Shown: piece after piece, positions 1-60,445 of the stretch
How positions within the stretch are numbered: the first letter of the stretch is position 1
Layout of the letters: every line of letters begins with the position of its first letter
Assembly (NCBI GenBank): GCA_024762335.1
Contig: JANTHO010000004.1
Coordinates: forward strand, 5,614 to 69,613
Direction: 5' to 3'
DNA from: Acidimicrobiia bacterium
Lineage (GTDB): Bacteria > Actinomycetota > Acidimicrobiia > Spongiisociales > UBA5794
Length of the DNA: 64,000 bases
The notes under the pieces: model-generated
What the model was told of the DNA's origin: nothing
Databases searched by the model: none
What the model saw: the letters and a program-made list of their open reading frames with translations, nothing else
Position numbers and translations under genes: made by a program

Positions 1-38
1 GTAGGGCCGCGCGCGGCTGATACGTCGGGTTCCCCCCA

Positions 39-89
39 CGACACGAACCCAGGGTTCTCTGCGCCCTATATGACGTTCTGAGCCCGCGG
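39..89 (+). repeat. 51-bp dispersed repeat, copy 1 (singlet)
   Basis: CGACACGAACCCAGGGTTCTCTGCGCCCTATATGACGTTCTGAGCCCGCGG; matches nine other copies in the window. Confidence 0.95.
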
Positions 90-114
90 AATGCCGGGGC
101 GGTACTGTGGTGGC

Positions 115-662: not shown

Positions 663-757
663 GGAGGTGTCCGGACGCCTGGTGGGTCCCCCGGTCTTCA
701 AAACCGGTGAGGGTGCGAGAGTGCCCTGGCGGGTTCGATTCCCGTCCACCTCCGCCA
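663..757 (+). tRNA. selC: tRNA-Sec (anticodon UCA)
   Basis: Acceptor GGAGGTGT/CCACCTCC-G-CCA; extended D stem GGAC..GTCC; anticodon arm CCGGT-CTTCAAA-ACCGG; long variable arm AGGGTGC-GAGA-GTGCCCT; T arm GCGGG-TTCGATT-CCCGT; 95 nt. Confidence 0.95.
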
Positions 758-11380: not shown

Positions 11381-11460
11381 TTCTCTGAGAACCGCATCGA
11401 TCGACATGGGTCCGCCTTCGATGGCTAGCCTTCGATGTGGAACTTCTGGAGGGAGTCCTC

Positions 11461-11829
11461 ATGCGTGTCGAAGCACTCGTCGGCGGGGCATCCGACGTCG
11501 TCGGTCCTGAGACCACCCTCGGCGATGCCGCCGGGGTGTTGATCGCTCGCGGAGTCGGGGCATTGGCGGTCGTGGACGGAAGGAAGTTCGTCGGGATCAT
11601 CACCGACAGAGATCTGGTGAGGGCGATGGCCGACGGGGTCGATCCGGACGAACCGGTGGCTTCATGGATGACCGATGGGCCCGATACGGTCCCACCGGGT
11701 GTGAGCGTTTCGGAAGCCGCCGACTGGCTGCTCGAGACCGGGTACCGGCATCTCCCGGTTGCCGTCGGCGACGAACTGCTCGGGATCGTCGATATCCGCG
11801 ACGTCCTCTGGGCCCTCCGCAAAGCCTAA
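11461..11829 (+). CDS. CBS-domain pair protein
   Basis: GIITDRDL, YRHLPV, GIVDIRDV; GGAGGGAG RBS before ATG 11461. Confidence 0.88.
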   Translation: MRVEALVGGASDVVGPETTLGDAAGVLIARGVGALAVVDGRKFVGIITDRDLVRAMADGVDPDEPVASWMTDGPDTVPPGVSVSEAADWLLETGYRHLPVAVGDELLGIVDIRDVLWALRKA

Positions 11830-11880
11830 CGACACGAACCCAGGGTTCTCTGCGCCCTATATGCGGTCTCGGGCCCGCGG
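11830..11880 (+). repeat. 51-bp dispersed repeat, copy 2 (left inverted repeat of nuclease gene)
   Basis: CGACACGAACCCAGGGTTCTCTGCGCCCTATATGCGGTCTCGGGCCCGCGG, starting immediately after the CBS gene TAA. Confidence 0.95.
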
Positions 11881-11937
11881 TATGGTTGGTCGATCAGACC
11901 TCTAGCTTCGGGGGCCGATTTGTGGCAGCTTGTTGCC

Positions 11938-12870
11938 ATGAATCCAGATCGAACTGCAGGCACGATCGCCGCTCGACAAGGCGGCGCCATCCGTCCCGAA
12001 CAGGCATTTGCCTGTGGCTTCACACGAGGTCAGATCGACCAGCGCGTCAGGGACGGACGTTGGCGATCGATCGGTCGATTTGGATATCGGGTCATCGAGA
12101 TGCCGGGATCGATGAACCTGGTGCGAGCAGCCGTTGCGACGCTGCCGGATGCCGTGGTGTCTCACGATACGGCGGCCGAGATGCACGGCTTGTCCAAACT
12201 CCGCAGAGGCGTTGCCTCAGTCCTGGTGCACTCGCGTACGACCCATGTCTTTCCGGGGGTGATTGTCCACCGGTGCCACGATCTTCTCGACGAACACTTC
12301 GTCGAGATCGACGGTCTCCCGGTCACGACGGCAGCGCGAACGATCGTTGATCTTGCCCCGTTTCTCACGGCGAGGCACCTCACGGCTGTGCTCGCCTCGG
12401 CTGTGACCGAACAGCACGTCTCCGCAGATGCGGTGCAGAATGTTGTGGGTCAGGTTGCGAGACGCGGCAAGCCCGGCATTCAGAAGATCCGACGGATTCT
12501 CGAGGAACGTGAGCTGGGGCCGAGAGACGGCACGCAGCTTGAGCGCAAAGGGGCCGAGGTGCTTCGGGCCGGCGGCCTGCCTACGCCGCGATTCGAATAT
12601 CCGATCCCCTGGGATCCAACCCGACGATTCGATGCTGCCTACCCGAAAGGGCGTCTCGCTATCGAGTGGGATTCCCGTCGTTGGCACGAACTCGTGGAGG
12701 CGTTCGCCCGTGATCGACAACGGGATCGCGAAGCCATGCTTCACGGATGGAGACTGATCCGGTTCACATGGGTGGATGTCGCCCGGCACCAGCGTGACGT
12801 CGTGGAAACGGTACGACAGTTGCTGCTCGCCGATCCGGCGTCGACGTCACTCTCTCATACCGCGGGCTGA
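11938..12870 (+). CDS. AbiEi-antitoxin-like N-terminus + DUF559/Vsr-like PD-(D/E)xK endonuclease domain protein
   Basis: ARQGGAI..Q...G....I..RV..GRW; VVSHDTAAEMHGL; GLPVTTAARTIVDLA; RFDAAYP..RLAIEWDSRRWH..RDRQRD....GW.LIRFTW. Confidence 0.85.
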   Translation: MNPDRTAGTIAARQGGAIRPEQAFACGFTRGQIDQRVRDGRWRSIGRFGYRVIEMPGSMNLVRAAVATLPDAVVSHDTAAEMHGLSKLRRGVASVLVHSRTTHVFPGVIVHRCHDLLDEHFVEIDGLPVTTAARTIVDLAPFLTARHLTAVLASAVTEQHVSADAVQNVVGQVARRGKPGIQKIRRILEERELGPRDGTQLERKGAEVLRAGGLPTPRFEYPIPWDPTRRFDAAYPKGRLAIEWDSRRWHELVEAFARDRQRDREAMLHGWRLIRFTWVDVARHQRDVVETVRQLLLADPASTSLSHTAG

Positions 12871-12910
12871 CAACGCCATATAGGGCGCAGAGAACCCTGG
12901 GTTCGTGTCG
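12860..12910 (-). repeat. 51-bp dispersed repeat, copy 3 (right inverted repeat of nuclease gene)
   Basis: CCGCGGGCTGACAACGCCATATAGGGCGCAGAGAACCCTGGGTTCGTGTCG. It contains the nuclease TGA stop and abuts the ATPase gene stop at 12911. Confidence 0.95.
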
Positions 12911-15259
12911 TCAGGGCTTGGGGATCCAGACGAGGGCGATATCCGAGATCGCGATGTCGTTCTTCTCGAGACCGATCCCCACCTCTTCGATGACGGCGGC
13001 CTTCTCATCCCACTCGGCGACGAGATCGGCGACCTCCCTCTGGAATTCATCCTGGATCTGCTGATACTCATCGACCTTCTCATCAACTCTCCGGGATGCA
13101 TCGGCTGCTCTTCGTTCAGCCGCCCGGCGCTGCTTCATCGATGTGGTCACGCTGCGTGAACGGCTGCGCCCTGAGAGCAGGTCGAAGACAGCTCCGGCCA
13201 TCATGTCAAGGTCGCCTGCGCTGGCGTCGTGACTCGCCGCTTCGGCTCGCGCCCCGGCCTTGTCGATGGCGGCCTGGATGCGGCGCAATTTCTTCTCATA
13301 GCGGCGTCCGACGGCTTCGGCAGCATCATCTGACTGCTCGTCTGCTTTGAGGCCGCACCGTTCAGCGAAGCTGTCTCGAGACTCTCCGACCCGCGAGTAC
13401 ATCTTCAGCTCGGGGTTCTTGAAGATCATGATCCTTCCGTCGCGATGCAGCCGCTCCTTGAAACCTGCCTCGAGCGACCTCCAATATCCCTTCGAGTCGA
13501 TGCGAACGTCGGGGAGGAGGTGCGGAGCCGGGATGGCGGGATTCTCCGTCAGGTCCCTCGGGTCGTAGTCCACCTCGATCGCTCCCGACGGATCATCGGA
13601 AAGTGGATGGAGCACGGCTTCCCACTCGGCGCTGTAGTCAACTCCGGCACGGACGTCGTCGTAGCGCGCACGGACACGTACCACAGCGGCCGCTTCGAAA
13701 TGGTCCGGGACATTCGACGCCCCCACTGAAGTGGCCCACGACGCTGCCGGATCGAGGTAGAACACCGGGATTCCCTCCGCGACGGGGGGCATGACGGGGA
13801 CCTCCGTGTCTCCGGTCAGAGTGCCCTGGTGAGTCGGGGTTGTGATCGGAGGGACGGTCGATCCGGATGAGGTCTCGCCATTCTCCGTGAGCAATGAGAT
13901 CTGGCTCGTGGTGAGCGGTCCGCGCAGGTACGACATCGCCCACCGTGTCGTGAACACGACGGGCTCTGCATCGTGTGTGTTGTGGAGGAGGAAGGAACGT
14001 TTCGACAGCCCGGAGATCTGGTCGCTCAGCGCAGCGACATCCGCATCCCCTGACGCCGACTCGAGGGCTTCGACGATGCGGGCCTTGTCCCGTTCGGTCT
14101 GGAGTCGCCCGATGCACCACGTCCCGGCGTTCGACATGGCCTTGTAGTCGAGATCGACGGGATTCTGCGTGGAGAGCAGCATGCCGACGCCGAAGGCCCT
14201 CGCCTGCTTCAGCAGCGTCAGGATCGGGCGCTTTGCAGGAGGATTCGCCGTTGGAGGGACGAAGCCGAACACCTCGTCCATGTAGGCCATGGCCCGGAGC
14301 TCACCAGTTCCCTGTTGGCGCCGCATCCAGGTGATCAGCTTCGAGAGCACCAATGTCACGACGAATTGACGTTCCTGCTCCGAGAGGTGCGCGATGTAGA
14401 TGACCGCGGCCTGTGGCTTGCCGTCGCTGTCCCAGAACAGCGACGCGATGTCGATCGGCGCTCCTTCCATCCAGGTGGCGAAACCGGGAGACGCCAGGAG
14501 ACCGTTGAGCTTCATCGCAAGGTCCAGCCGGTCGTCGGGCGGAAAGAACGTGTCCACATCGAACACGCCGAGCTTGCGAATGGGTGGTCGCTGTATCCAA
14601 CCGAGCAGGATGTCGATACCGAGAGACTGGTCGTTTCTCCACGCGTACTCGACGAGGTTGGCGATGAGGATGCTCTCCCGTGAGGAGACGGGGTCTGCGT
14701 CGATGCCGACCATGCCGAGCAACCCGGCGGTGAATCCCTGGATCTCGTCACGCAGCGCTTCGGCATTGTCGCCGAATGGTTCCCCGGGTGCTGCGAGGGA
14801 CCCGATGACGTTGAGTGGCACACCGGCGGTCGAACCGGGTGTGTAGATGGTGATCCCGGCGCGGTCGCGAAGTGCTCTGATGTCATCACCGTCCAGCCCC
14901 CACGTGGCGAGACCGTTGGACCAACGTTCCGCGGTACTTCGTGCTGCTTCGGCGGTCGAACCGGAGCCGTCGGAGACCGAGGACGGATCGATCCACGGTT
15001 CGAAGTCCTCCGGGGCGAGGTTCGGAAAGGTCAGAGCGAGGTTCGTCATGTCGCCCTTGGGATCGAGGATCAGGGAGGGAATGCCGGACCGAAGGGCCTC
15101 TTCGAGGAAGATCACGCCCAGACCGGTCTTGCCCGACCCCGTCATGCCGACGATGACGCCGTGGGTGGTCAAGTCTTTCGAGTCGTACAGCACCCGTTCG
15201 GACGCGACGGGTTCACCCGTCTCAGGATCGACAGGGGCACCGAGGTAGAAGTCACTCAT
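12911..15259 (-). CDS. HerA/FtsK-like P-loop ATPase (DUF87/DUF853-type) with C-terminal coiled coil
   Basis: HGVIVGMTGSGKTG, LILDPKGD, AYMDEVFG, LKQARAFGVG..LSTQNPVDLDYK; ATG is 6 nt after TACCGT. Confidence 0.88.
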   Translation of the reverse strand: MSDFYLGAPVDPETGEPVASERVLYDSKDLTTHGVIVGMTGSGKTGLGVIFLEEALRSGIPSLILDPKGDMTNLALTFPNLAPEDFEPWIDPSSVSDGSGSTAEAARSTAERWSNGLATWGLDGDDIRALRDRAGITIYTPGSTAGVPLNVIGSLAAPGEPFGDNAEALRDEIQGFTAGLLGMVGIDADPVSSRESILIANLVEYAWRNDQSLGIDILLGWIQRPPIRKLGVFDVDTFFPPDDRLDLAMKLNGLLASPGFATWMEGAPIDIASLFWDSDGKPQAAVIYIAHLSEQERQFVVTLVLSKLITWMRRQQGTGELRAMAYMDEVFGFVPPTANPPAKRPILTLLKQARAFGVGMLLSTQNPVDLDYKAMSNAGTWCIGRLQTERDKARIVEALESASGDADVAALSDQISGLSKRSFLLHNTHDAEPVVFTTRWAMSYLRGPLTTSQISLLTENGETSSGSTVPPITTPTHQGTLTGDTEVPVMPPVAEGIPVFYLDPAASWATSVGASNVPDHFEAAAVVRVRARYDDVRAGVDYSAEWEAVLHPLSDDPSGAIEVDYDPRDLTENPAIPAPHLLPDVRIDSKGYWRSLEAGFKERLHRDGRIMIFKNPELKMYSRVGESRDSFAERCGLKADEQSDDAAEAVGRRYEKKLRRIQAAIDKAGARAEAASHDASAGDLDMMAGAVFDLLSGRSRSRSVTTSMKQRRAAERRAADASRRVDEKVDEYQQIQDEFQREVADLVAEWDEKAAVIEEVGIGLEKNDIAISDIALVWIPKP

Positions 15260-15298
15260 ACTCGAACGGTAGTGGTGTTCGTGGTGGCGTTCACTGAA

Positions 15299-15349
15299 CC
15301 GCGGGCCCGAGACCGCATATAGGGCGCAGAGAACCCTGGGTTCGTGTCG
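15299..15349 (-). repeat. 51-bp dispersed repeat, copy 4 (singlet; exact reverse complement of copy 2)
   Basis: CCGCGGGCCCGAGACCGCATATAGGGCGCAGAGAACCCTGGGTTCGTGTCG, abutting the TAA stop at 15350. Confidence 0.95.
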
Positions 15350-16357
15350 TTAGAGGCCGAGGCGTTGGCGGATGACGGAGAACGCGTCATCCGACTCCTC
15401 TGGGATCATGAAGGAGAAGCCCCGGTGACCCGTGAGCTTCTTCACCAGCTCCACCGACGCCGTTGTGTTCGTGGCCATCCCCGCGACGACGTCCGGTTCG
15501 TAGCCGAAACCGGCGATCACGCCCGAGACAGCGTACGGATCCGACGCGCACAACACGGTGCACCGGACGTTCTCCCCGAGCTCTTCGAGCACAATCTCAC
15601 CGTTGTACGGCTCGAGCGGGGATGCGCCGGCCTCCGCCACGACCACATCCGGGCGTCGGGAGGCAACGAGGGCGAGCAGGTCGCGGAGCCTCGAGCGAAA
15701 GAAGTCCGGATCGGCGATCGTCGACGGGAGGCCAACGTCCACGAAGTCGTAGATGTCGTCTGCGCCGGAGTCCCACATGGCAAGCACATCCCGGTAGCGC
15801 CCGGCCCCGGTGAGTTTCGTTCCGACGATGTGCAAGCCGAGTTCCTTGAGATGCCGGATGATGCGCTTGGCGGCCGTCGTCTTGCCCGCCGACATCGACG
15901 TTCCGATCACGATGACGGTCGGTATGTCGTAGATGACATCGGGAACCGGTGGGACGAAGTCGCCCATCGTCATCTTGCGACCGCCACGGGTCACGTGGCC
16001 CACATAGCGGAGGCGCATCAGCGGCGGCATGAGCGGAGCGATGGAGGTGACACGCCCGAACAGGCCGGCTGCCGTGAGAGCGTTGAACATGCCGTCGTCT
16101 CCGATGTGAGTCCAGTCGCCGACCGCTTCGAGTGTGGCCCTTCGAATTCCCCACGCTCCGACGACGAGATCCCCTTCGACCACTTCGATCATGCGTCCAT
16201 TGCGAAGCTCGACGCGTGAATACATTCCGGCCCGGCCGACGACTCGCCCGACGACGTAGTCGCCGGCGTCCCAGTCGTCGCGATTCCACGGTTCGATGTT
16301 GAACGGGTCCTCGGCGAGGTTCGAGATGCGTGTCAGGGACGAGAAGAAGTACTTCAT
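15350..16357 (-). CDS. DUF1611-like P-loop protein
   Basis: VIGTSMSAGKTT, KLTGAGRYRD, GADDIYDFVDVGLPST; translationally coupled to the upstream M20 gene. Confidence 0.7.
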   Translation of the reverse strand: MKYFFSSLTRISNLAEDPFNIEPWNRDDWDAGDYVVGRVVGRAGMYSRVELRNGRMIEVVEGDLVVGAWGIRRATLEAVGDWTHIGDDGMFNALTAAGLFGRVTSIAPLMPPLMRLRYVGHVTRGGRKMTMGDFVPPVPDVIYDIPTVIVIGTSMSAGKTTAAKRIIRHLKELGLHIVGTKLTGAGRYRDVLAMWDSGADDIYDFVDVGLPSTIADPDFFRSRLRDLLALVASRRPDVVVAEAGASPLEPYNGEIVLEELGENVRCTVLCASDPYAVSGVIAGFGYEPDVVAGMATNTTASVELVKKLTGHRGFSFMIPEESDDAFSVIRQRLGL

Positions 16358-22333: not shown

Positions 22334-24064
22334 TCAGCCTGCGTTGTTCTTGAAGCCGAACAGGGCATCCCAGTACGTGAAGTTGCCATCACGACCGGTG
22401 TGGTTCGGGCTGTTCAAGTCCCACTGGGCGTCGTAGCTGGCCACGACGTCGTTGGCGTCGAATGCGCTGCCGTCGTGGAACGTCACTCCCTTGCGGAGGT
22501 GGAACGTCCACAGCGTGCCGTCCTCATTCGGCTCGTAGGTTTCGGCGAGAGCGGGAACGACGTTGGTGCCGCCGATCTCGTAGGCGAGGAGCGATTCTGT
22601 GATCTGCTCACAGGCACGCAGGCTCTCGCCGTCGGTCTCATCTGCGCAGTACAGGCCGATGGGCTCGGCGTTCTGCATCCACACGAACGTGTCGCGTCCA
22701 CCCGGATCCATCACAGCGAAGTACTCGTTGCCGAGCGGGCTCGCTTGTGCATTGGTGACGTCGGCACGGTAGCCAACGCCCGAACCGCCGTGGGCGATCG
22801 GAACCATCGGAACGTGCTGCTTGATGAGCGCGGTCGCCTTCTCGTAGATGTCGAGACGTGCGGCCGGGTCGGGCGTCGAAGCGCCTTCGTCGAGCAGGTC
22901 CCAGATGTCTTCGAAACCGGCGCCGAACTGATCGGACGCGGTCCTTCCAAAGTGGAAGTCGAGGAAGTTGGTGGCGTCCGGATAGTCCGCGCCCCAACCG
23001 AGCATGTACATGGTCAGCTCACCGGCGTCGCTGGCGTCGAGGAAGGCCCCGGACTCCATGACTTCGATGTTGACCTTGACGCCGATGTCTGCGAGCTGTG
23101 CCTGGATGTCCTGGCCGACGGTTGCCGGCGAGGGCAGGTAGCTGCGGACGACGTCTCGGTAGTTCAATGTCACTTCGAAACCGTCGGGGTATCCCGCTTC
23201 GGCGAGCAGCGCCTTGGCGCCCTCGACGTCCTGGTCGTACCACTTGGGCTCCGGCGTGTATCCGAAGATCGGTTCCGGCATGAACTGGTCTGCGACCTTC
23301 GAACCTGGTGGGTAGAAGTTGTCGACGATCCGCTGACGGTCGAGCGCCATGCCGATGGCCTGGCGGACCCGCTCGTCGGTGAACGGCTCCTTGTCCCGGT
23401 TCATGCCGAGATAGAAGATGTTCGTGCCTGCCCGCTCCTTCAGCTGAAGGTCGGGGGAGTCCGAGATCAGAGCGAAGTCGTCACGGCCCGGGTTGTCGAT
23501 ACCGTCGACGGTGCCCGCCTGGAGTTCGACGAAGCGCTGAGCGGCTTCCGAGCTCCACTTGAACACGAGCGTGTCGGTGATCGCCTGATTGCCCCAGTAG
23601 TTGGGGTTCTTTTCCATGACGAGCTGGTTGCCCTTGTCCCACTGCTTGAGCATGTAGGGACCGGTGCCGACTGGTGCGTCCACGAGTGCGCCGCCGCCGC
23701 CATTGGCGTCGAGGTACTCCTGCGGGACGATGCCGAACGCAGAGAACGCAACCTTCGCCGGGAATGCGACGTCCTGGGTGCACAACTGGATCTCGACGGT
23801 GTTCTCATCTACCGCCTTGATGTAGTTGATGTTGCTGGTGTTCGTCGGGTCGTCGCAATCTGCTTCAACCATCATGCCGGCGAACTCTGCGCCTGCGGCG
23901 GTGGTCGTTGTTGCTTCCGTTCCTCCGCTTGCGGCGGTGGTTGTTGTTGCCTCGGTTCCTCCGCTTGCGGCGGTGGTGGTCGTCTCCTCAGAGCTCGACC
24001 CACATGCTGCCGCGATGAGTGCCATCACGAAGACGAGGACAAGTAGTTTGCTGAATCGTTTCAA
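22334..24064 (-). CDS. dppA: Family-5 (DppA/OppA-like) lipoprotein solute-binding protein, circularly permuted
   Basis: TTG start after GGAAGGAGG RBS; lipobox IAAAC; PVGTGPY, RVRQAI, GWGADYPDA. The usual N-terminal block PALAE..DG..WTFHLRKGVTFHDG lies at the C-terminus. Confidence 0.9.
   Translation of the reverse strand: MKRFSKLLVLVFVMALIAAACGSSSEETTTTAASGGTEATTTTAASGGTEATTTTAAGAEFAGMMVEADCDDPTNTSNINYIKAVDENTVEIQLCTQDVAFPAKVAFSAFGIVPQEYLDANGGGGALVDAPVGTGPYMLKQWDKGNQLVMEKNPNYWGNQAITDTLVFKWSSEAAQRFVELQAGTVDGIDNPGRDDFALISDSPDLQLKERAGTNIFYLGMNRDKEPFTDERVRQAIGMALDRQRIVDNFYPPGSKVADQFMPEPIFGYTPEPKWYDQDVEGAKALLAEAGYPDGFEVTLNYRDVVRSYLPSPATVGQDIQAQLADIGVKVNIEVMESGAFLDASDAGELTMYMLGWGADYPDATNFLDFHFGRTASDQFGAGFEDIWDLLDEGASTPDPAARLDIYEKATALIKQHVPMVPIAHGGSGVGYRADVTNAQASPLGNEYFAVMDPGGRDTFVWMQNAEPIGLYCADETDGESLRACEQITESLLAYEIGGTNVVPALAETYEPNEDGTLWTFHLRKGVTFHDGSAFDANDVVASYDAQWDLNSPNHTGRDGNFTYWDALFGFKNNAG
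23895..23986. repeat. 36-bp tandem repeat (about 2.5 units) encoding the (TTTTAASGGTEA)n linker
   Basis: gcggcggtggtcgttgttgcttccgttcctccgctt / gcggcggtggttgttgttgcctcggttcctccgctt / partial third unit. Confidence 0.85.
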
Positions 24065-24166
24065 GGGTGCCTCCTTCCCCTGTTTGGGGCCGATCCGCTG
24101 GATCGGTCGATTCAACGCTAGTCGTTCGCGAGGGACCAATGTTCCAACAATCGGCGATCGCTCATT

Positions 24167-24217
24167 CCGCGGGCCCGGGACGCCATATAGGGCGCAGAGA
24201 ACCCTGGGTTCGTGTCG
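24167..24217 (-). repeat. 51-bp dispersed repeat, copy 5 (singlet)
   Basis: CCGCGGGCCCGGGACGCCATATAGGGCGCAGAGAACCCTGGGTTCGTGTCG between divergent genes. Confidence 0.95.
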
Positions 24218-24245
24218 GGGTAGGGTTTGCGGGTTGCGCGAAGGG

Positions 24246-29164: not shown

Positions 29165-29201
29165 ACGAACCGAGGCTAGCGCAGCCCACTCCCCTCCGTC
29201 C

Positions 29202-29252
29202 CGACACGAACCCAGGGTTCTCTGCGTCCCATATGACGTTGTCAGCCCGCGG
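29202..29252 (+). repeat. 51-bp dispersed repeat, copy 6 (left arm of empty doublet)
   Basis: CGACACGAACCCAGGGTTCTCTGCGTCCCATATGACGTTGTCAGCCCGCGG. Confidence 0.93.
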
Positions 29253-29271
29253 TTCACGAGGTGTCTCCATT

Positions 29272-29322
29272 CCGCGGGCCCGGGACGCCATATACAAAGC
29301 AGAGAACCCTGGGTTCGTGTCG
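29272..29322 (-). repeat. 51-bp dispersed repeat, copy 7 (right arm of empty doublet, 19-nt spacer)
   Basis: CCGCGGGCCCGGGACGCCATATACAAAGCAGAGAACCCTGGGTTCGTGTCG. Confidence 0.93.
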
Positions 29323-29343
29323 GGGAGGGGTAGGGTCGCCGGC

Positions 29344-37085: not shown

Positions 37086-38747
37086 CTATGAAACCGTCGC
37101 GGTGACTGGGACTGCGACGAGCGTCATCCTGAAGATGGTCTCGTGGCCGTCGTGGTCGTAGACCAGGTCTCCGCCCATGTGGCGGGCGAGGCGGCGTGAC
37201 ACGGTGAGGCCGAGTCCTACGGAAGCGGTTGTGCCCTCGCGCTGTCGTGCCCTCGTGTACGGCTCGAATATGGCGGCGCGGCTCGAGGGGGCCAATGGCT
37301 CTCCGTCGTCCCGCACCTCGAGAATCCCGTTGGGTCCATCGCTGTCGATGATCACCCGGGCGTTCGGTCCTCCGTAGCGGCGTGCGTTCGTGACCATGTT
37401 GCGGATGATCTGGCGGACGCGGTGGGGATCGGCGATGACCTCAGGGTGTCCGTTCACCTCCACGGGGATGTCGGGATCGATCGCGTGGGTGACCGCCTCC
37501 GCTTCCACCGACAGGTCGACGGGTCTCGACTCCACGATCAGGTTGCCGGCGTCGGCGCGGGCTGCAACGAGGAGGTCCTCGACGATGCGCGATGCTTCAA
37601 GGCTCTGATCGGCGACCAGACCGAGAAGTTCGCTTCTCTCGGCGTCATCGATCAAGCTGCTTTCGTCGCGCAACTCCTGGGCGATCCCCACCACCGCCGT
37701 GAGCGGCGTCCGTAATTCGTGAGAGATGGTCGCGACAAACTGGCTTTGAGAGTCGATGAGGCGCTGCAACTTGCGTTCCGCCTCCCGTTGACGCGTGACG
37801 TCGATGATCGCGACGGTGACGTTGCTCAGGTCGCGCTCACCATCGACCACAGGGGCGCTCCACACCAGGAGAGCTTCGATCGGCCGTCCCGTCATCGTGA
37901 GCCCGCCCTTGAGTTCGACCGAAACCTTCTCTTCACCGTCGGCTGTTGCGAGGAACTGGGGAATGAACGATTCGAGCGCACCCCTCGAGAACGTTTCCAT
38001 CCCGAAATTGCCGAGGAGAAGGACACGGTCGGGGGCTTCCGTGAGCAGGAGGGCGGCTTCGTTCACGTCGGTGACGGTCACGAGAGCGGCGAGACGCCTG
38101 ACCTCTTCCGGGTTGGACTGCAGATACCCCTCGAGGTTCGAAACGCCGGCAGTCGTCAGTGCAGAGAGCTCGCTTTCCACAGCCGTGAAATCCTCCTTCC
38201 ACAGCGAGATCGGTGCATGCTCGAAGAGGTTGCGGTACCGCTCTTCCCTCCGGCCGAACTCTCTGCGCACTCCGGCGAGGAGCGTTGCACCGAACGCGAC
38301 GGCGACGGTCCCGGTGATCGCCTGGAGAGCCGGTACCTCGGCGGCGCCCCACTCGATCAGGTTGATGAAGATCAGGATCGAGTAGCCGGCGATGTAGACG
38401 ATCGCCAGCCGTTGTGGGACGAAGAGTGCGCCGATGATTCCGACGATTGCCAGCGGGAGGATGGCCAAGTGGGCGAGGGGGTCGAAGGGGAGCAGATAAT
38501 TCTGGACGGTGATCGCAAGGGCGATGCTGAGGAGGATCGGCAGGATCCGCGGCGCGTGGCGTCTGAGCATCGCTAGTCCTGCGATCGCGACCAGGGTCGG
38601 TCCGATGGCTCCGAGGGCGGTCGTTTCGTTGCCGCTGAGCAGTCCACTGATGACGAAACCGGCGGAAGCAGTCGCGGCGAGCACCGTAGCCAGTTGAACT
38701 AGCGACCGTTCGATGGCGAACGGAAGTTGGTCGTAGCTCGGATGCAT
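37086..38747 (-). CDS. Membrane-bound PAS sensor histidine kinase
   Basis: About 5-6 TMs, PAS (LFEHAPISLWKED), H-box ISHELRTPL, N-box NMVTNARRYG, VRDDG, GLGL. Confidence 0.88.
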   Translation of the reverse strand: MHPSYDQLPFAIERSLVQLATVLAATASAGFVISGLLSGNETTALGAIGPTLVAIAGLAMLRRHAPRILPILLSIALAITVQNYLLPFDPLAHLAILPLAIVGIIGALFVPQRLAIVYIAGYSILIFINLIEWGAAEVPALQAITGTVAVAFGATLLAGVRREFGRREERYRNLFEHAPISLWKEDFTAVESELSALTTAGVSNLEGYLQSNPEEVRRLAALVTVTDVNEAALLLTEAPDRVLLLGNFGMETFSRGALESFIPQFLATADGEEKVSVELKGGLTMTGRPIEALLVWSAPVVDGERDLSNVTVAIIDVTRQREAERKLQRLIDSQSQFVATISHELRTPLTAVVGIAQELRDESSLIDDAERSELLGLVADQSLEASRIVEDLLVAARADAGNLIVESRPVDLSVEAEAVTHAIDPDIPVEVNGHPEVIADPHRVRQIIRNMVTNARRYGGPNARVIIDSDGPNGILEVRDDGEPLAPSSRAAIFEPYTRARQREGTTASVGLGLTVSRRLARHMGGDLVYDHDGHETIFRMTLVAVPVTATVS

Positions 38748-45800: not shown

Positions 45801-45904
45801 CGCAGATCCTCTCATGGGGTCTTGGCAATTTACGAAATGTTGTATCGGGTGATTGCCGCCGCGCTTGAGGCATCAATCCCATTTGAGTCGATCGGACTAG
45901 TCCC

Positions 45905-45955
45905 CGACACGAACCCAGGGTTCTCTGCTTTCTATATGGCGTCTCCAGCCCGCGG
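45905..45955 (+). repeat. 51-bp dispersed repeat, copy 8 (left arm of empty doublet)
   Basis: CGACACGAACCCAGGGTTCTCTGCTTTCTATATGGCGTCTCCAGCCCGCGG. Confidence 0.93.
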
Positions 45956-45984
45956 AATAGAGGAGGTCGTGAAGGCCGGGCGAG

Positions 45985-46035
45985 CCGCGGGCTCACAACG
46001 CCATATACAGGGTCGAGAACCCTGGGTTCGTGACG
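45985..46035 (-). repeat. 51-bp dispersed repeat, copy 9 (right arm of empty doublet, 29-nt spacer)
   Basis: CCGCGGGCTCACAACGCCATATACAGGGTCGAGAACCCTGGGTTCGTGACG. Confidence 0.9.
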
Positions 46036-46053
46036 GGGGTAGCCTTGGCGAGT

Positions 46054-60381: not shown

Positions 60382-60392
60382 CGATCTCTATA

Positions 60393-60443
60393 CCGCGGGC
60401 TGGCAACGCCATATAGGGCGCAGAGAACCCTGGGTTCGTGTCG
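60393..60443 (-). repeat. 51-bp dispersed repeat, copy 10 (singlet)
   Basis: CCGCGGGCTGGCAACGCCATATAGGGCGCAGAGAACCCTGGGTTCGTGTCG; one mismatch to copy 3; lies between convergent genes. Confidence 0.95.
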
Positions 60444-60445
60444 GG

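What the first reader, a model, noticed from the sequence alone, without database searches (positions are those of the whole stretch)
11830..12910. AbiEi/DUF559 nuclease gene exactly bracketed by inverted copies of a dispersed 51-bp repeat: a candidate REPIN/RAYT-like system with a non-Y1 enzyme
Seen: copy 2 (+) starts 1 nt after the upstream stop codon and copy 3 (-) ends 1 nt before the downstream gene's stop. Between them lies only the AbiEi-like/DUF559 gene, whose own TGA is inside the right repeat. The repeat(+)..repeat(-) orientation, with CCGCGG ends pointing inward, is identical to the two gene-less doublets elsewhere in the window. Established: REP/REPIN populations in Proteobacteria are maintained by RAYT HUH/Y1 enzymes whose genes are flanked by cognate REPs; DUF559/Vsr-like domains are PD-(D/E)xK nucleases; AbiEi N-terminal domains bind DNA. 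Inference: this may be the autonomous or driver unit of a selfish or domesticated repeat family that uses a PD-(D/E)xK nuclease, with the doublets as non-autonomous derivatives and the singlets as decay products. I know of no characterised system of this composition, but I cannot exclude one.
Basis: partly seen in the sequence, partly recalled or inferred. Interest (0 to 1): 0.92.

Follow-up and report, generated by a model that had tools for sequence, protein, structure and literature searches.

The report
Nuclease gene partnered with its repeats
A DNA-binding nuclease gene in an uncultured Acidimicrobiia bacterium sits between two mirror-image copies of a 55-base repeat that is scattered about 78 times through the genome, and related species that lost the gene have let the repeat decay, much as in the known REPIN/RAYT partnership but with an unrelated enzyme.

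Summary
Window 11920/11938-12870 encodes an AbiEi-type DNA-binding module fused to a Vsr/DUF559-type PD-(D/E)xK nuclease. It is bracketed base-for-base by inverted copies of a ~55-nt repeat (11830-11884 +, 12856-12910 -). The genome holds ~78 copies: 20 doublets, all (+,-) like the gene's flanks, and 34 singlets.

The CBS-nuclease-HerA locus is syntenic across the genus, and in every species found to carry the gene it is flanked by that species' own repeat variant, which is also its dispersed variant. A 50%-identical paralog has its own flanking and dispersed family. In three genomes CBS abuts HerA across a single palindrome, with no gene. Each is next to or inside gene-bearing lineages, and they have the fewest copies (1, 4, 12 versus 15-75). 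Their surviving copies carry core mutations. Copies at orthologous sites evolve in concert. The gene is under purifying selection (dN/dS 0.10) and keeps its catalytic residues. The genus has no RAYT apart from one IS200-like Y1 gene in G017.

The best reading is a vertically inherited nuclease-repeat partnership that works like REPIN/RAYT with a non-HUH enzyme. The biochemical mechanism is inferred. I found no published description, although earlier notes of this scan report the same layout elsewhere.

The parts
11830..11884 (+). Left repeat arm of family 1. Outer hexamer X is CGACAC (11830-11835). Palindromic core P is GAACCCAGGGTTC (11836-11848). A variable hairpin segment follows (11849-11872), then the conserved tail GCCCGCGG+TATG (11873-11884). 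The arm starts directly after the CBS stop codon.
   Evidence: the hairpin covaries across 30 diverse arms
11885..11937 (+). Leader between the left arm and the start codon. It contains conserved motifs: ACCTCTAG, and TGGCA-N6-TGCCA overlapping the ATG. It is a probable promoter or operator region. No sigma-70 consensus was found.
   Evidence: motifs conserved in orthologs and paralogs; no consensus promoter
11938..12870 (+). Gene for an AbiEi-type module (wHTH plus the AbiEi C-terminal domain, about residues 1-195) fused to a Vsr/DUF559/EDxHD-type PD-(D/E)xK nuclease (about residues 215-300). The longest ORF starts at TTG 11920. The last four codons plus the stop (H-T-A-G-TGA) are supplied by the right repeat.
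   Evidence: (invariant D232, E243, D245, H250, D259, R275, T277); dN/dS 0.10
12856..12910 (-). Right repeat arm of family 1, inverted. Core P is at 12892-12904 and outer hexamer GTGTCG at 12905-12910. The arm ends directly before the stop codon of the HerA-like gene.
15295..15353 (-). Third copy, upstream of the HerA-like gene. Over 56 nt it is a perfect inverted twin of the left arm (11826-11881), sharing a variant (TATATGCGGTCTCGGG) seen in no other copy. A copy at this position is conserved in G004 and G009, and is decayed in G005.
   Evidence: (I4)
11437..11829 (+). CBS-domain gene, the conserved left neighbour. It is not part of the system but defines the syntenic site.
12911..15259 (-). 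HerA-like P-loop ATPase gene, the conserved right neighbour. It stays next to CBS in genomes that lack the nuclease gene.
38..93 (+). Family-1 singlet.
24163..24220 (-). Family-1 singlet. The site is orthologous in G001.
29201..29331 (.). Family-1 doublet, (+) arm 29201-29256 and (-) arm 29268-29331. It is REPIN-like.
45904..46044 (.). Family-1 doublet, (+) arm 45904-45959 and (-) arm 45981-46044.
60389..60445 (-). Family-1 singlet.

Best explanation
The gene and the repeat form one vertically inherited, two-part system. The protein is an AbiEi-type winged-helix DNA binder fused to a Vsr/EDxHD-type PD-(D/E)xK nuclease. I infer that it recognises its cognate repeat, probably binding the 13-bp palindrome GAACCCWGGGTTC as a dimer with help from the adjacent covarying hairpin. 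I further infer that it nicks or cuts there, and that repair of these breaks from other copies (gene conversion or homing-like copying) keeps the ~55-nt arms and ~125-nt doublets intact, alike within a genome, and occasionally duplicated. The gene's own flanks are the founding doublet.

Shown here:
- the flanking arrangement is conserved in every ortholog and in most homologs;
- paralogs pair with their own repeat families;
- gene loss coincides with repeat decay;
- copies evolve in concert within a genome;
- the gene is under purifying selection and keeps its catalytic residues.

Inferred: binding, cleavage, and the copying route.
For: (a) Synteny and cognate flanks. The order CBS-gene-HerA holds in 16 species of the genus, and each gene is flanked by inverted arms whose variable middle is species-specific and matches between the two arms. 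The same variant is the dispersed one in that species (G020 and G004 are explicit).

(b) Three protein clades pair with three repeat families. Family 2 flanks the C56 paralog and has 21-25 dispersed copies including doublets. Family 3 flanks the G003/G005 paralog.

(c) Natural knock-outs. In G005, G008 and G015, CBS abuts HerA with only one palindrome (X-P-X') between the two stop codons. Each of these genomes lies next to or inside gene-bearing lineages on the HerA tree: G008 with G017, G005 with G009, and G015 in the same clade. Their family-1 counts are 12, 4 and 1, against 15-75 in 17 carriers (exact Mann-Whitney p = 8.8e-4). For family 2, carriers have 6-23 copies and non-carriers have 0 (11 genomes), 2, 2, 5 and 7 (p = 1.7e-4). 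There is also a reciprocal sister contrast. G009 has clade 1 with 51 family-1 copies, and lacks clade 3 with 1 family-3 copy. G005 lacks clade 1 with 12 family-1 copies, and has clade 3 with 9 family-3 copies.

(d) Decay in place. Over 90 kb of G009/G005 synteny, copies at orthologous sites in G005 carry mutations in core positions that are invariant in carriers: CCC to CTC, A to G, CCC to CGC, and loss of the tail.

(e) Concerted evolution. At 19 orthologous arms, G000 and G001 are 87% identical to each other but 96-98% identical to a paralogous copy in their own genome. This holds in 17-18 of the 19.

(f) The protein. dN/dS is 0.10. D, E-x-D, H and D are invariant in 33 homologs down to 31% identity. 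In the model (pLDDT 90), the N-terminal part matches AbiEi (6Y8Q, E = 1e-5) and the C-terminal part matches the catalytic domain of the homing endonuclease I-Bth0305I (3R3P, TM 0.78).

(g) No RAYT or Y1 transposase was found in 20 of the 21 genus genomes. The exception is one IS200-like Y1 gene in G017. Other repeat-bracketed segments hold ordinary genes and no transposase.
Against: - There is no biochemical evidence that the protein binds or cuts the repeat.
- No target-site duplication or fresh insertion was seen. Most copies are at orthologous sites in G000 and G001, so any duplication is rare.
- A PD-(D/E)xK hydrolase alone is not known to carry out strand transfer.
- G030, from another family of the order, has 17 family-1-like copies but no detectable homolog. 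It is 85% complete.
- G003 has 46 copies but no ortholog was found. Its contig breaks right after CBS.
- Four genomes without paralog 2 still have 2-7 family-2 cores.
- All genomes are MAGs, and repeat-flanked genes tend to fall on small contigs.
- The losses number only three, and the correlation could run the other way: a process that purges repeats could also excise the repeat-flanked gene.
- An earlier scan note (e1-2301526) reports that a comparable gene/repeat co-occurrence test failed in another genus.
Confidence: 0.6

Rival explanations
1. The repeats are private binding sites. The protein would be a DNA-binding regulator or nucleoid-type factor, and the repeats would be its operators or landing sites, kept by host-level selection because bound sites do something useful at gene ends (insulation, termination, replication or segregation cues). 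The protein does not copy them. They spread by ordinary recombination and decay once the protein is lost.
For: AbiEi antitoxins are autoregulators that bind inverted repeats in their own promoter (established knowledge; fold match to 6Y8Q). The core P is a classic dimer-type dyad. The arms abut stop codons. Most sites are old and orthologous between G000 and G001. Co-loss and decay fit this model equally well. An earlier scan note (e1-5176745) reached this reading for another genome.
Against: A fully conserved nuclease active site under purifying selection has no role in a pure binding model. Parallel changes of the variable segment at many orthologous sites need sequence copying between sites, not site-by-site selection. 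The fixed-geometry doublets (20 of 20 in (+,-), spacing 95/96 or 106 nt), and paralogs that were duplicated together with their arms, look like a replicating unit.
Confidence: 0.18
2. The gene is a homing-type selfish cassette. It would be a free-standing homing endonuclease gene whose target is the palindrome X-P-X' (or the spacer of a doublet). It would sit inside its own split target, and the dispersed repeats would be potential targets or relics made by some other process, not products of the enzyme.
For: The nuclease domain resembles the homing endonuclease I-Bth0305I. Gene-less alleles carry exactly one intact palindrome where carriers have X-P-I-gene-I'-P-X'. In G014 the cassette is inverted between its arms. 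G004 has a second copy with its own arms on a small contig.
Against: The gene is single-copy at one syntenic site although dozens of doublets in the same genome would be equivalent targets. Its divergence is comparable to that of its neighbours. The empty sites are nested within carrier lineages, so they are losses rather than unoccupied ancestral alleles. The model does not explain why the dispersed copies decay when the gene is lost.
Confidence: 0.12
3. The association is coincidence or hitch-hiking. The repeat would be a MITE/REP-like element moved by an unidentified factor that prefers gaps between convergent genes. The nuclease gene would merely lie between two such gaps, and gene loss and repeat loss would share a cause such as a general deletion bias.
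For: Other inverted pairs bracket ordinary genes: a Zn-ribbon protein gene at C5 and a P-type ATPase gene at C15. G030 has repeats without a detected homolog.
Against: Three protein clades are each flanked by their own repeat family. Across the class, 43 of 68 homolog loci have flanking inverted repeats against 0 of 68 controls. The G005/G009 pair shows a reciprocal pattern. No candidate transposase or RAYT was found.
Confidence: 0.06
4. The protein is a Vsr-type mismatch repair enzyme that repairs T:G mismatches from 5-methylcytosine deamination at the CCWGG sequence inside the core.
For: The fold is Vsr/DUF559, and the core contains CCWGG.
Against: No C5-cytosine methyltransferase (PF00145) was found in G000, G001 or G016, which carry the gene and 62-75 repeats. 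The model does not explain the flanking arms, the doublets or the clade-specific families.
Confidence: 0.02

Closest known systems
REPIN/RAYT systems (REP-associated tyrosine transposases with REP doublets; Pseudomonas, enterobacteria, Neisseria; PMC3116915, PMC3337134, bioRxiv 10.1101/2021.07.10.451892)
   Same: - The gene is single-copy and vertically inherited in a fixed extragenic site.
- It is flanked by inverted cognate repeats.
- Tens of copies are dispersed as inverted doublets and singlets.
- Different paralogs in one genome each have their own family.
- The repeat population decays when the gene is lost.
   Different: - The enzyme is an AbiEi wHTH fused to a PD-(D/E)xK (Vsr/EDxHD-like) nuclease, not an HUH/Y1 transposase. 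No Y1_Tnp is present.
- The repeat has no GTAG/CGTC tag. It has a 13-bp duplex-type dyad, a covarying hairpin and a GCCCRCRGAA tail.
- The host is Acidimicrobiia (Actinomycetota), not Proteobacteria.
- The chemistry is unknown.
AbiE type IV toxin-antitoxin / abortive infection system (AbiEi antitoxin with AbiEii nucleotidyltransferase toxin; structure 6Y8Q)
   Same: The N-terminal ~195 residues match the whole AbiEi antitoxin by profile (1.6e-24) and by fold. AbiEi is known to bind inverted repeats.
   Different: There is no AbiEii/DUF1814 partner; the neighbours are the CBS and HerA-like genes. The module is fused to a nuclease and is tied to a genome-wide repeat family.
EDxHD/Vsr-like homing endonucleases (I-Bth0305I, 3R3P) and DUF559 proteins (NGO0050, 3HRL)
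   Same: The catalytic domain has the same fold (TM 0.76-0.78 over ~100 residues), with the conserved acidic and His residues. The filled and empty alleles differ by a split versus an intact palindrome.
   Different: The gene is not inside an intron, an intein or a phage gene. It is chromosomal, syntenic and single-copy, and is associated with dispersed non-coding repeats.
IS elements with MITE derivatives (for example Correia, IS200/IS605 with PATEs)
   Same: Long terminal inverted repeats frame one gene, and there are short gene-less derivatives of fixed length.
   Different: No DDE, HUH, serine or tyrosine transposase is present. No target-site duplication was seen. The gene-bearing unit is not multi-copy and is not mobile on the time scale of the genus.

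Membership tests
REPIN/RAYT system | The enzyme is an HUH/Y1 transposase (Pfam Y1_Tnp, PF01797) | tested here: not met
   The protein has AbiEi plus PD-(D/E)xK domains. PF01797 is absent from G000 and from 19 of its 20 genus relatives.
REPIN/RAYT system | The gene is flanked by inverted copies of its cognate dispersed repeat | tested here: met
REPIN/RAYT system | Single copy, same extragenic site, vertical inheritance | tested here: met
   Synteny with CBS and HerA holds in 16 species. Divergence is like that of the neighbours.
REPIN/RAYT system | The repeat is a REP: a GTAG or CGTC tag plus a hairpin, recognised as single-stranded DNA | tested here: not met
   The consensus is X-GAACCCWGGGTTC-hairpin-GCCCRCRGAA. 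A covarying hairpin is present, but there is no GTAG/CGTC tag.
REPIN/RAYT system | The repeat population decays when the enzyme gene is lost | tested here: met
AbiE toxin-antitoxin system | AbiEi antitoxin module (wHTH plus C-terminal domain) | tested here: met
   PADLOC AbiEi 1.6e-24 over residues 10-178 (other AbiEi models reach residue 193). Foldseek match to 6Y8Q, E = 1e-5.
AbiE toxin-antitoxin system | An adjacent AbiEii (DUF1814) nucleotidyltransferase toxin gene | tested here: not met
   The neighbours are the CBS-domain and HerA-like genes. The same holds in relatives.
Vsr/DUF559/EDxHD PD-(D/E)xK nucleases | Vsr-like fold with conserved acidic and His catalytic residues | tested here: met
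   Matches to 3R3P and 3HRL, TM 0.76-0.78. D232, E243, D245, H250 and D259 are invariant. Pfam hits are below the cut-off.
Vsr/DUF559/EDxHD PD-(D/E)xK nucleases | Site-specific DNA cleavage activity | not testable with these tools
   This needs purified protein.
Insertion sequence with MITEs | Target-site duplication and multiple mobile copies of the gene-bearing unit | tested here: not met
   No duplication was seen at polymorphic sites. There is one copy per clade at a fixed site.

The most novel reading that the evidence does not exclude
AbiEi-wHTH/PD-(D/E)xK fusion proteins are a second, independently evolved class of enzymes that create, copy and homogenise their own palindromic repeat populations. 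That would make them a non-HUH counterpart of RAYTs, working on duplex or cruciform DNA by break-induced gene conversion. In this reading the system is widespread in Acidimicrobiia and, according to earlier notes of this scan, in other Actinomycetota. Excision and insertion would go through the 13-bp core, which would explain the precise X-P-X' scars left by three independent gene losses.
Probability: 0.35. Interest if true: 0.9.

Novelty: new variant of a known kind. Interest (0 to 1): 0.8.

Why it matters
REP-type repeats are among the commonest non-coding features of bacterial genomes, yet the only enzyme class known to maintain them is the HUH-type RAYT, mostly in Proteobacteria. If a restriction-fold nuclease with an antitoxin-type DNA reader plays the same role in Actinomycetota, several things follow.
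- Persistent, vertically inherited repeat-plus-enzyme partnerships would have evolved at least twice, with different chemistry.
- A large family annotated only as 'DUF559/AbiEi antitoxin domain' would receive a function.
- Assembly breaks and inversions at these loci would be explained.
- A compact sequence-specific nuclease with a co-evolving ~13-bp dyad target would be of practical interest.

This genus offers an unusually clean natural experiment. It has three independent gene losses with graded repeat decay, and one reciprocal sister pair. That makes the dependence of the repeats on the gene testable.

Tried and rejected
- A fuzzy-regex census timed out and was replaced by BLAST plus exact-core counts.
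- My first impression from an exact 20-mer search was that relatives carry the gene without repeats. This was wrong. The flanks showed diverged cognate arms, and a generic pattern found them genus-wide.
- One gapped pattern for family 2 had the wrong spacing and returned nothing. It was redone as a 16-mer.
- RNAalifold on 30 arms proposed only an invariant GGGTT/AGCCC pairing without covariation. The hairpin I specified by eye was then tested and showed covariation.
- Rfam found only tRNA-Sec in the window, with nothing at the repeats.
- No sigma-70 promoter or intrinsic terminator consensus lies at the arms.
- I searched for a transposase inside other repeat-bracketed or indel segments. They hold only ordinary genes: a Zn-ribbon protein, a P-type ATPase, an ABC transporter and a response regulator.
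- RAYT as the driver was rejected.
- The Vsr/Dcm repair role was rejected.
- A search for target-site duplications at G000/G001 polymorphic sites found none.
- Literature searches on DUF559, AbiEi plus nuclease or MITE, and REPIN plus RAYT found no description of this pairing. The only trace is a table row listing DUF559 proteins as enriched among predicted inversion targets (PMC9881135).
Full report
**1. What is in the window**

The window is contig C4:5614-69613 of a 2.42-Mb, 64% G+C, 117-contig genome. Earlier notes of this scan and the titles of related records place it in uncultured Acidimicrobiia.

- The CBS-domain ORF ends with TAA at 11829.
- From 11830 runs CGACAC-GAACCCAGGGTTC-TCTGCGCCCTATATGCGGTCTCGG-GCCCGCGG-TATG.
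- An ORF follows, from TTG 11920 or more probably ATG 11938, to TGA 12868-12870.
- The inverted copy of the repeat occupies 12856-12910.
- The stop codon of a convergent HerA-like ATPase gene begins at 12911.

The nuclease ORF's last four codons and its stop (CAT ACC GCG GGC TGA) are supplied by the right arm. The same is true in several relatives (H-S-A-G-stop).

**2. The repeat family in this genome**

The window has 10 copies. The genome has 78 GAACCCWGGGTTC cores, 75 of them with the full arm.

- They form 20 doublets, all in the (+,-) orientation with the CCGCGG ends facing inward. Core-to-core spacing is 95/96 or 106 nt.
- There are also 34 singlets.
- The gene's flanks have the doublet's orientation. 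As in the doublets, the two arms differ in the segment next to CCGCGG.
- The outer end often abuts a stop codon.
- A third copy upstream of the HerA-like gene (15295-15353) is a perfect 56-nt inverted twin of the left arm and shares a private variant with it (I4).

**3. The protein**

- Pfam gives only sub-threshold hits: MTES_1575, AbiEi_4 and DUF559.
- PADLOC AbiEi profiles match residues ~9-193 at 1.6e-24.
- An AlphaFold2 model built on 33 homologs has mean pLDDT 90.
- Foldseek matches its N-terminal ~200 residues to the AbiEi antitoxin (6Y8Q, E = 1e-5). It matches the C-terminal ~100 residues to the catalytic domain of the homing endonuclease I-Bth0305I (3R3P, TM 0.78) and to the DUF559 protein NGO0050 (3HRL).
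- D232, E243, D245, H250, D259, R275 and T277 are invariant in 33 homologs down to 31% identity.
- Among orthologs dN/dS is 0.10. The neighbours give 0.09 (CBS) and 0.18 (HerA). dS is saturated between most species.
- There is no AbiEii toxin gene next to it.

**4. Comparative test 1: the locus in relatives**

An exact 20-mer from the repeat is abundant only in G000 and its closest relative G001, whereas the gene is present in most of the genus. Taken alone, that looks like a refutation. Reading the flanks showed otherwise.

- In all 16 ortholog loci fetched, the order CBS-gene-HerA is kept.
- In each, the gene is bracketed by inverted arms wherever the flank was assembled. The arms share ACCCAGGGT, then 26 nt, then GCCCGCGGAATG, but their middle segment is species-specific and matches between the two arms of that species.
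- Some species have two or three tandem arms per side.
- In G014 the gene with its arms is inverted relative to both neighbours.
- A generic pattern finds 15-75 copies in nearly every genus member and none for the reversed control.
- The dispersed copies carry the same species-specific middle as the copies at the gene. G020 and G004 are explicit examples.

**5. Comparative test 2: paralogs**

- G000 has one clear paralog (C56:3493-4383, 50% identity). It is flanked by an inverted pair of a different variant, GCGAACCCAGGGCTCG...GCCCAGAGAAC. That variant has 21-25 dispersed copies in G000, including doublets.
- Its orthologs in G001, G002, G007, G010 and G012 are flanked in the same way.
- More distant homologs (31-45% identity) in other families of the order have their own inverted arms. 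These have related dyads (GAACCTTAGGTTC, CAACCTGAGGTTG) or quite different long hairpins.
- In 68 further loci from Acidimicrobiia MAGs, 43 have a flanking inverted repeat of at least 30 bits. Comparing either flank with the gene interior gives 0 of 68.
- Across 30 diverse arms the middle segment forms a hairpin. All 10 of its pairs show changes on both sides. The covariation score is 0.255, against 0.144 for shuffles (0 of 500 reach it) and at most 0.124 for slid registers.
- Gene and arms have therefore been inherited, and duplicated, as one unit.

**6. Comparative test 3: natural losses**

In G005, G008 and G015 the CBS and HerA genes are adjacent. Only ~25 nt lie between their stop codons, and this is one palindrome, for example TGA-CGCTGAGAACCCTGGGTTGGCGGCG-TCA. 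Its structure is X-P-X', where carriers have X-P-I-gene-I'-P-X'.

On a HerA tree:
- G008 is sister to G017 (support 100/99);
- G005 is sister to G009 (98/97);
- G015 lies in the same clade.

So the losses look independent and went through the core.

| Genomes | Family-1 copies |
|---|---|
| G015, G008, G005 (no gene) | 1, 4, 12 |
| 17 carriers | 15-75 |

- These three genomes have the three lowest counts (exact Mann-Whitney p = 8.8e-4). Their order follows their distance from the nearest carrier.
- Core-only counts agree.
- G008 and G015 have no member of the protein family at all.
- Over 90 kb of collinear sequence, G005 still has copies at the sites where G009 has them. Those copies carry substitutions in positions that never vary in carriers.

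For family 2, six genomes with the paralog have 6-23 cores. Fifteen without it have 0 (11 genomes), 2, 2, 5 and 7 (p = 1.7e-4).

A third clade, present in G003 and G005, is flanked by a hairpin family (TTCTTGCGTA...TACGCAAGAA). That family has 17 copies in G003 and 9 in G005, but 1 in G009 and 0 in G000, both of which lack that clade. G005 and G009 therefore show reciprocal patterns within one sister pair.

**7. Dynamics**

- G000 and G001 are ~85% identical in flanking DNA, and most repeat sites are orthologous. Insertions are therefore old.
- Yet 19 orthologous arms are only 87% identical to each other, while each is 96-98% identical to some paralogous copy in its own genome. The same diagnostic differences recur at many sites. 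This is concerted evolution, and it requires sequence transfer between copies.
- Polymorphic sites include a doublet in G001 where G000 has a singlet, a doublet where G000 has an unrelated sequence, and a singlet where G000 has nothing. No target-site duplication was seen.

**8. Rivals and caveats**

- No Y1/RAYT gene exists in the genus, except an IS200-like one in G017.
- No C5-methyltransferase was found in G000, G001 or G016. This argues against a Vsr/Dcm repair role.
- Other inverted pairs bracket ordinary genes, so bracketing alone proves little.
- G030 has 17 related repeats but no detected homolog.
- G003 has 46 copies, but its contig breaks right after CBS.
- All genomes are MAGs.
- Binding and cleavage are untested, and a hydrolytic nuclease cannot by itself explain copying.
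- A model in which the repeats are binding sites kept by host-level selection explains the co-loss equally well. It explains the conserved active site and the concerted evolution less well.

**9. Comparison with what is known**

The behaviour matches what is written about REPIN/RAYT systems (PMC3116915; PMC3337134; bioRxiv 10.1101/2021.07.10.451892):
- the gene stays in the same extragenic space;
- inheritance is vertical;
- cognate flanking repeats are present;
- the repeats decay after gene loss.

Two defining features of that family are not met: the HUH enzyme and the tagged REP. I therefore file this as something that works like REPIN/RAYT, not as a member of it.

In the paper library I found no description of this pairing. 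The only trace is that 'DUF559 domain-containing protein' is enriched 14-fold among predicted programmed-inversion targets (PMC9881135), which is what flanking inverted arms would produce.

Earlier notes of this scan report the same layout in at least 48 other genomes. I treat them as leads only. One of them (e1-2301526) was later priced low because the repeat did not track the gene in that genus. Here the equivalent test, with a reversed-pattern control and three independent losses, came out positive.

**10. Verdict**

The most likely explanation (0.6) is a domesticated, vertically inherited nuclease-repeat partnership in which the protein acts on its cognate palindromic repeat and is needed to keep the repeat population intact and homogeneous. 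The mechanism is inferred to be break-induced gene conversion or homing-like copying through the 13-bp core.

Noticed in passing
window 11826-11881 and 15298-15353: These two copies are 100% complementary over 56 nt and share a variant (TATATGCGGTCTCGGG) found in no other copy of the genome. Together they enclose both the nuclease gene and the HerA-like gene. This suggests recent gene conversion between them, or an inversion or duplication of the 3.5-kb block.
   Followed up: partly
window 11921-11940 (TGGCAGCTTGTTGCCATG), and the equivalent position in homolog loci L021, L024, L031, L034, L037: A small dyad or hairpin overlaps the start codon: TGGCA-N6-TGCCA here, and TGTCACACC...CATGCC..GGGCATG in paralogs. 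It is conserved in position across clades. It may be an autoregulatory operator or a translational control element.
   Followed up: no
L019 (G014:C68:10928-13495): The nuclease gene together with its two arms is inverted relative to the CBS and HerA genes, so the cassette can flip between its inverted arms.
   Followed up: partly
G000:C56:3400-4481 and about 20 other sites (for example C2:11732/11830, C15:39248/39346): A second repeat family (GTGCCCTGCGAACCCAGGGCTCG...GCCCAGAGAAC) has its own doublets. It is cognate to the paralogous nuclease gene on C56.
   Followed up: yes
G000:C5:41699-42540 (conserved in G001) and G000:C15:24324-27166: Inverted pairs of family-1 arms bracket ordinary genes: a Zn-ribbon membrane protein gene and a 907-aa P-type ATPase gene. 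The two arms of the C5 pair are identical to each other and differ from most other copies.
   Followed up: partly
G000:C57:780-5547, C2:15387-16225, C20:29148-29815: These segments are present in G000 but absent at the orthologous place in G001. Each ends at a family-1 repeat. Their contents are ordinary genes, such as a branched-chain amino-acid ABC transporter. The repeats may be break points for indels.
   Followed up: partly
G000:C12:~37560-37640: Where G001 has a family-1 doublet, G000 has an unrelated palindromic element (AGAGCCAAGAGCCAAGA...TCTTAGCTCTTGGTTCT), and the upstream gene has a different C-terminus. Repeat turnover therefore rewrites gene 3' ends.
   Followed up: no
window 663-753: A selenocysteine tRNA gene (Rfam RF01852, 73 bits) lies here.
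   Followed up: no
window 23887-23994: There are three tandem 36-nt units (CTGCGCCTGCGGCGGTGGTCGTTGTTGCTTCCGTTC). They are probably coding repeats on the opposite strand.
   Followed up: no
G030 (another family of the order), for example C10:29701-29882 and C10:132626-132784: There are seventeen family-1-like arms, several in tandem arrays and rather heterogeneous, in a genome where no AbiEi-nuclease homolog was detected (85% complete).
   Followed up: partly
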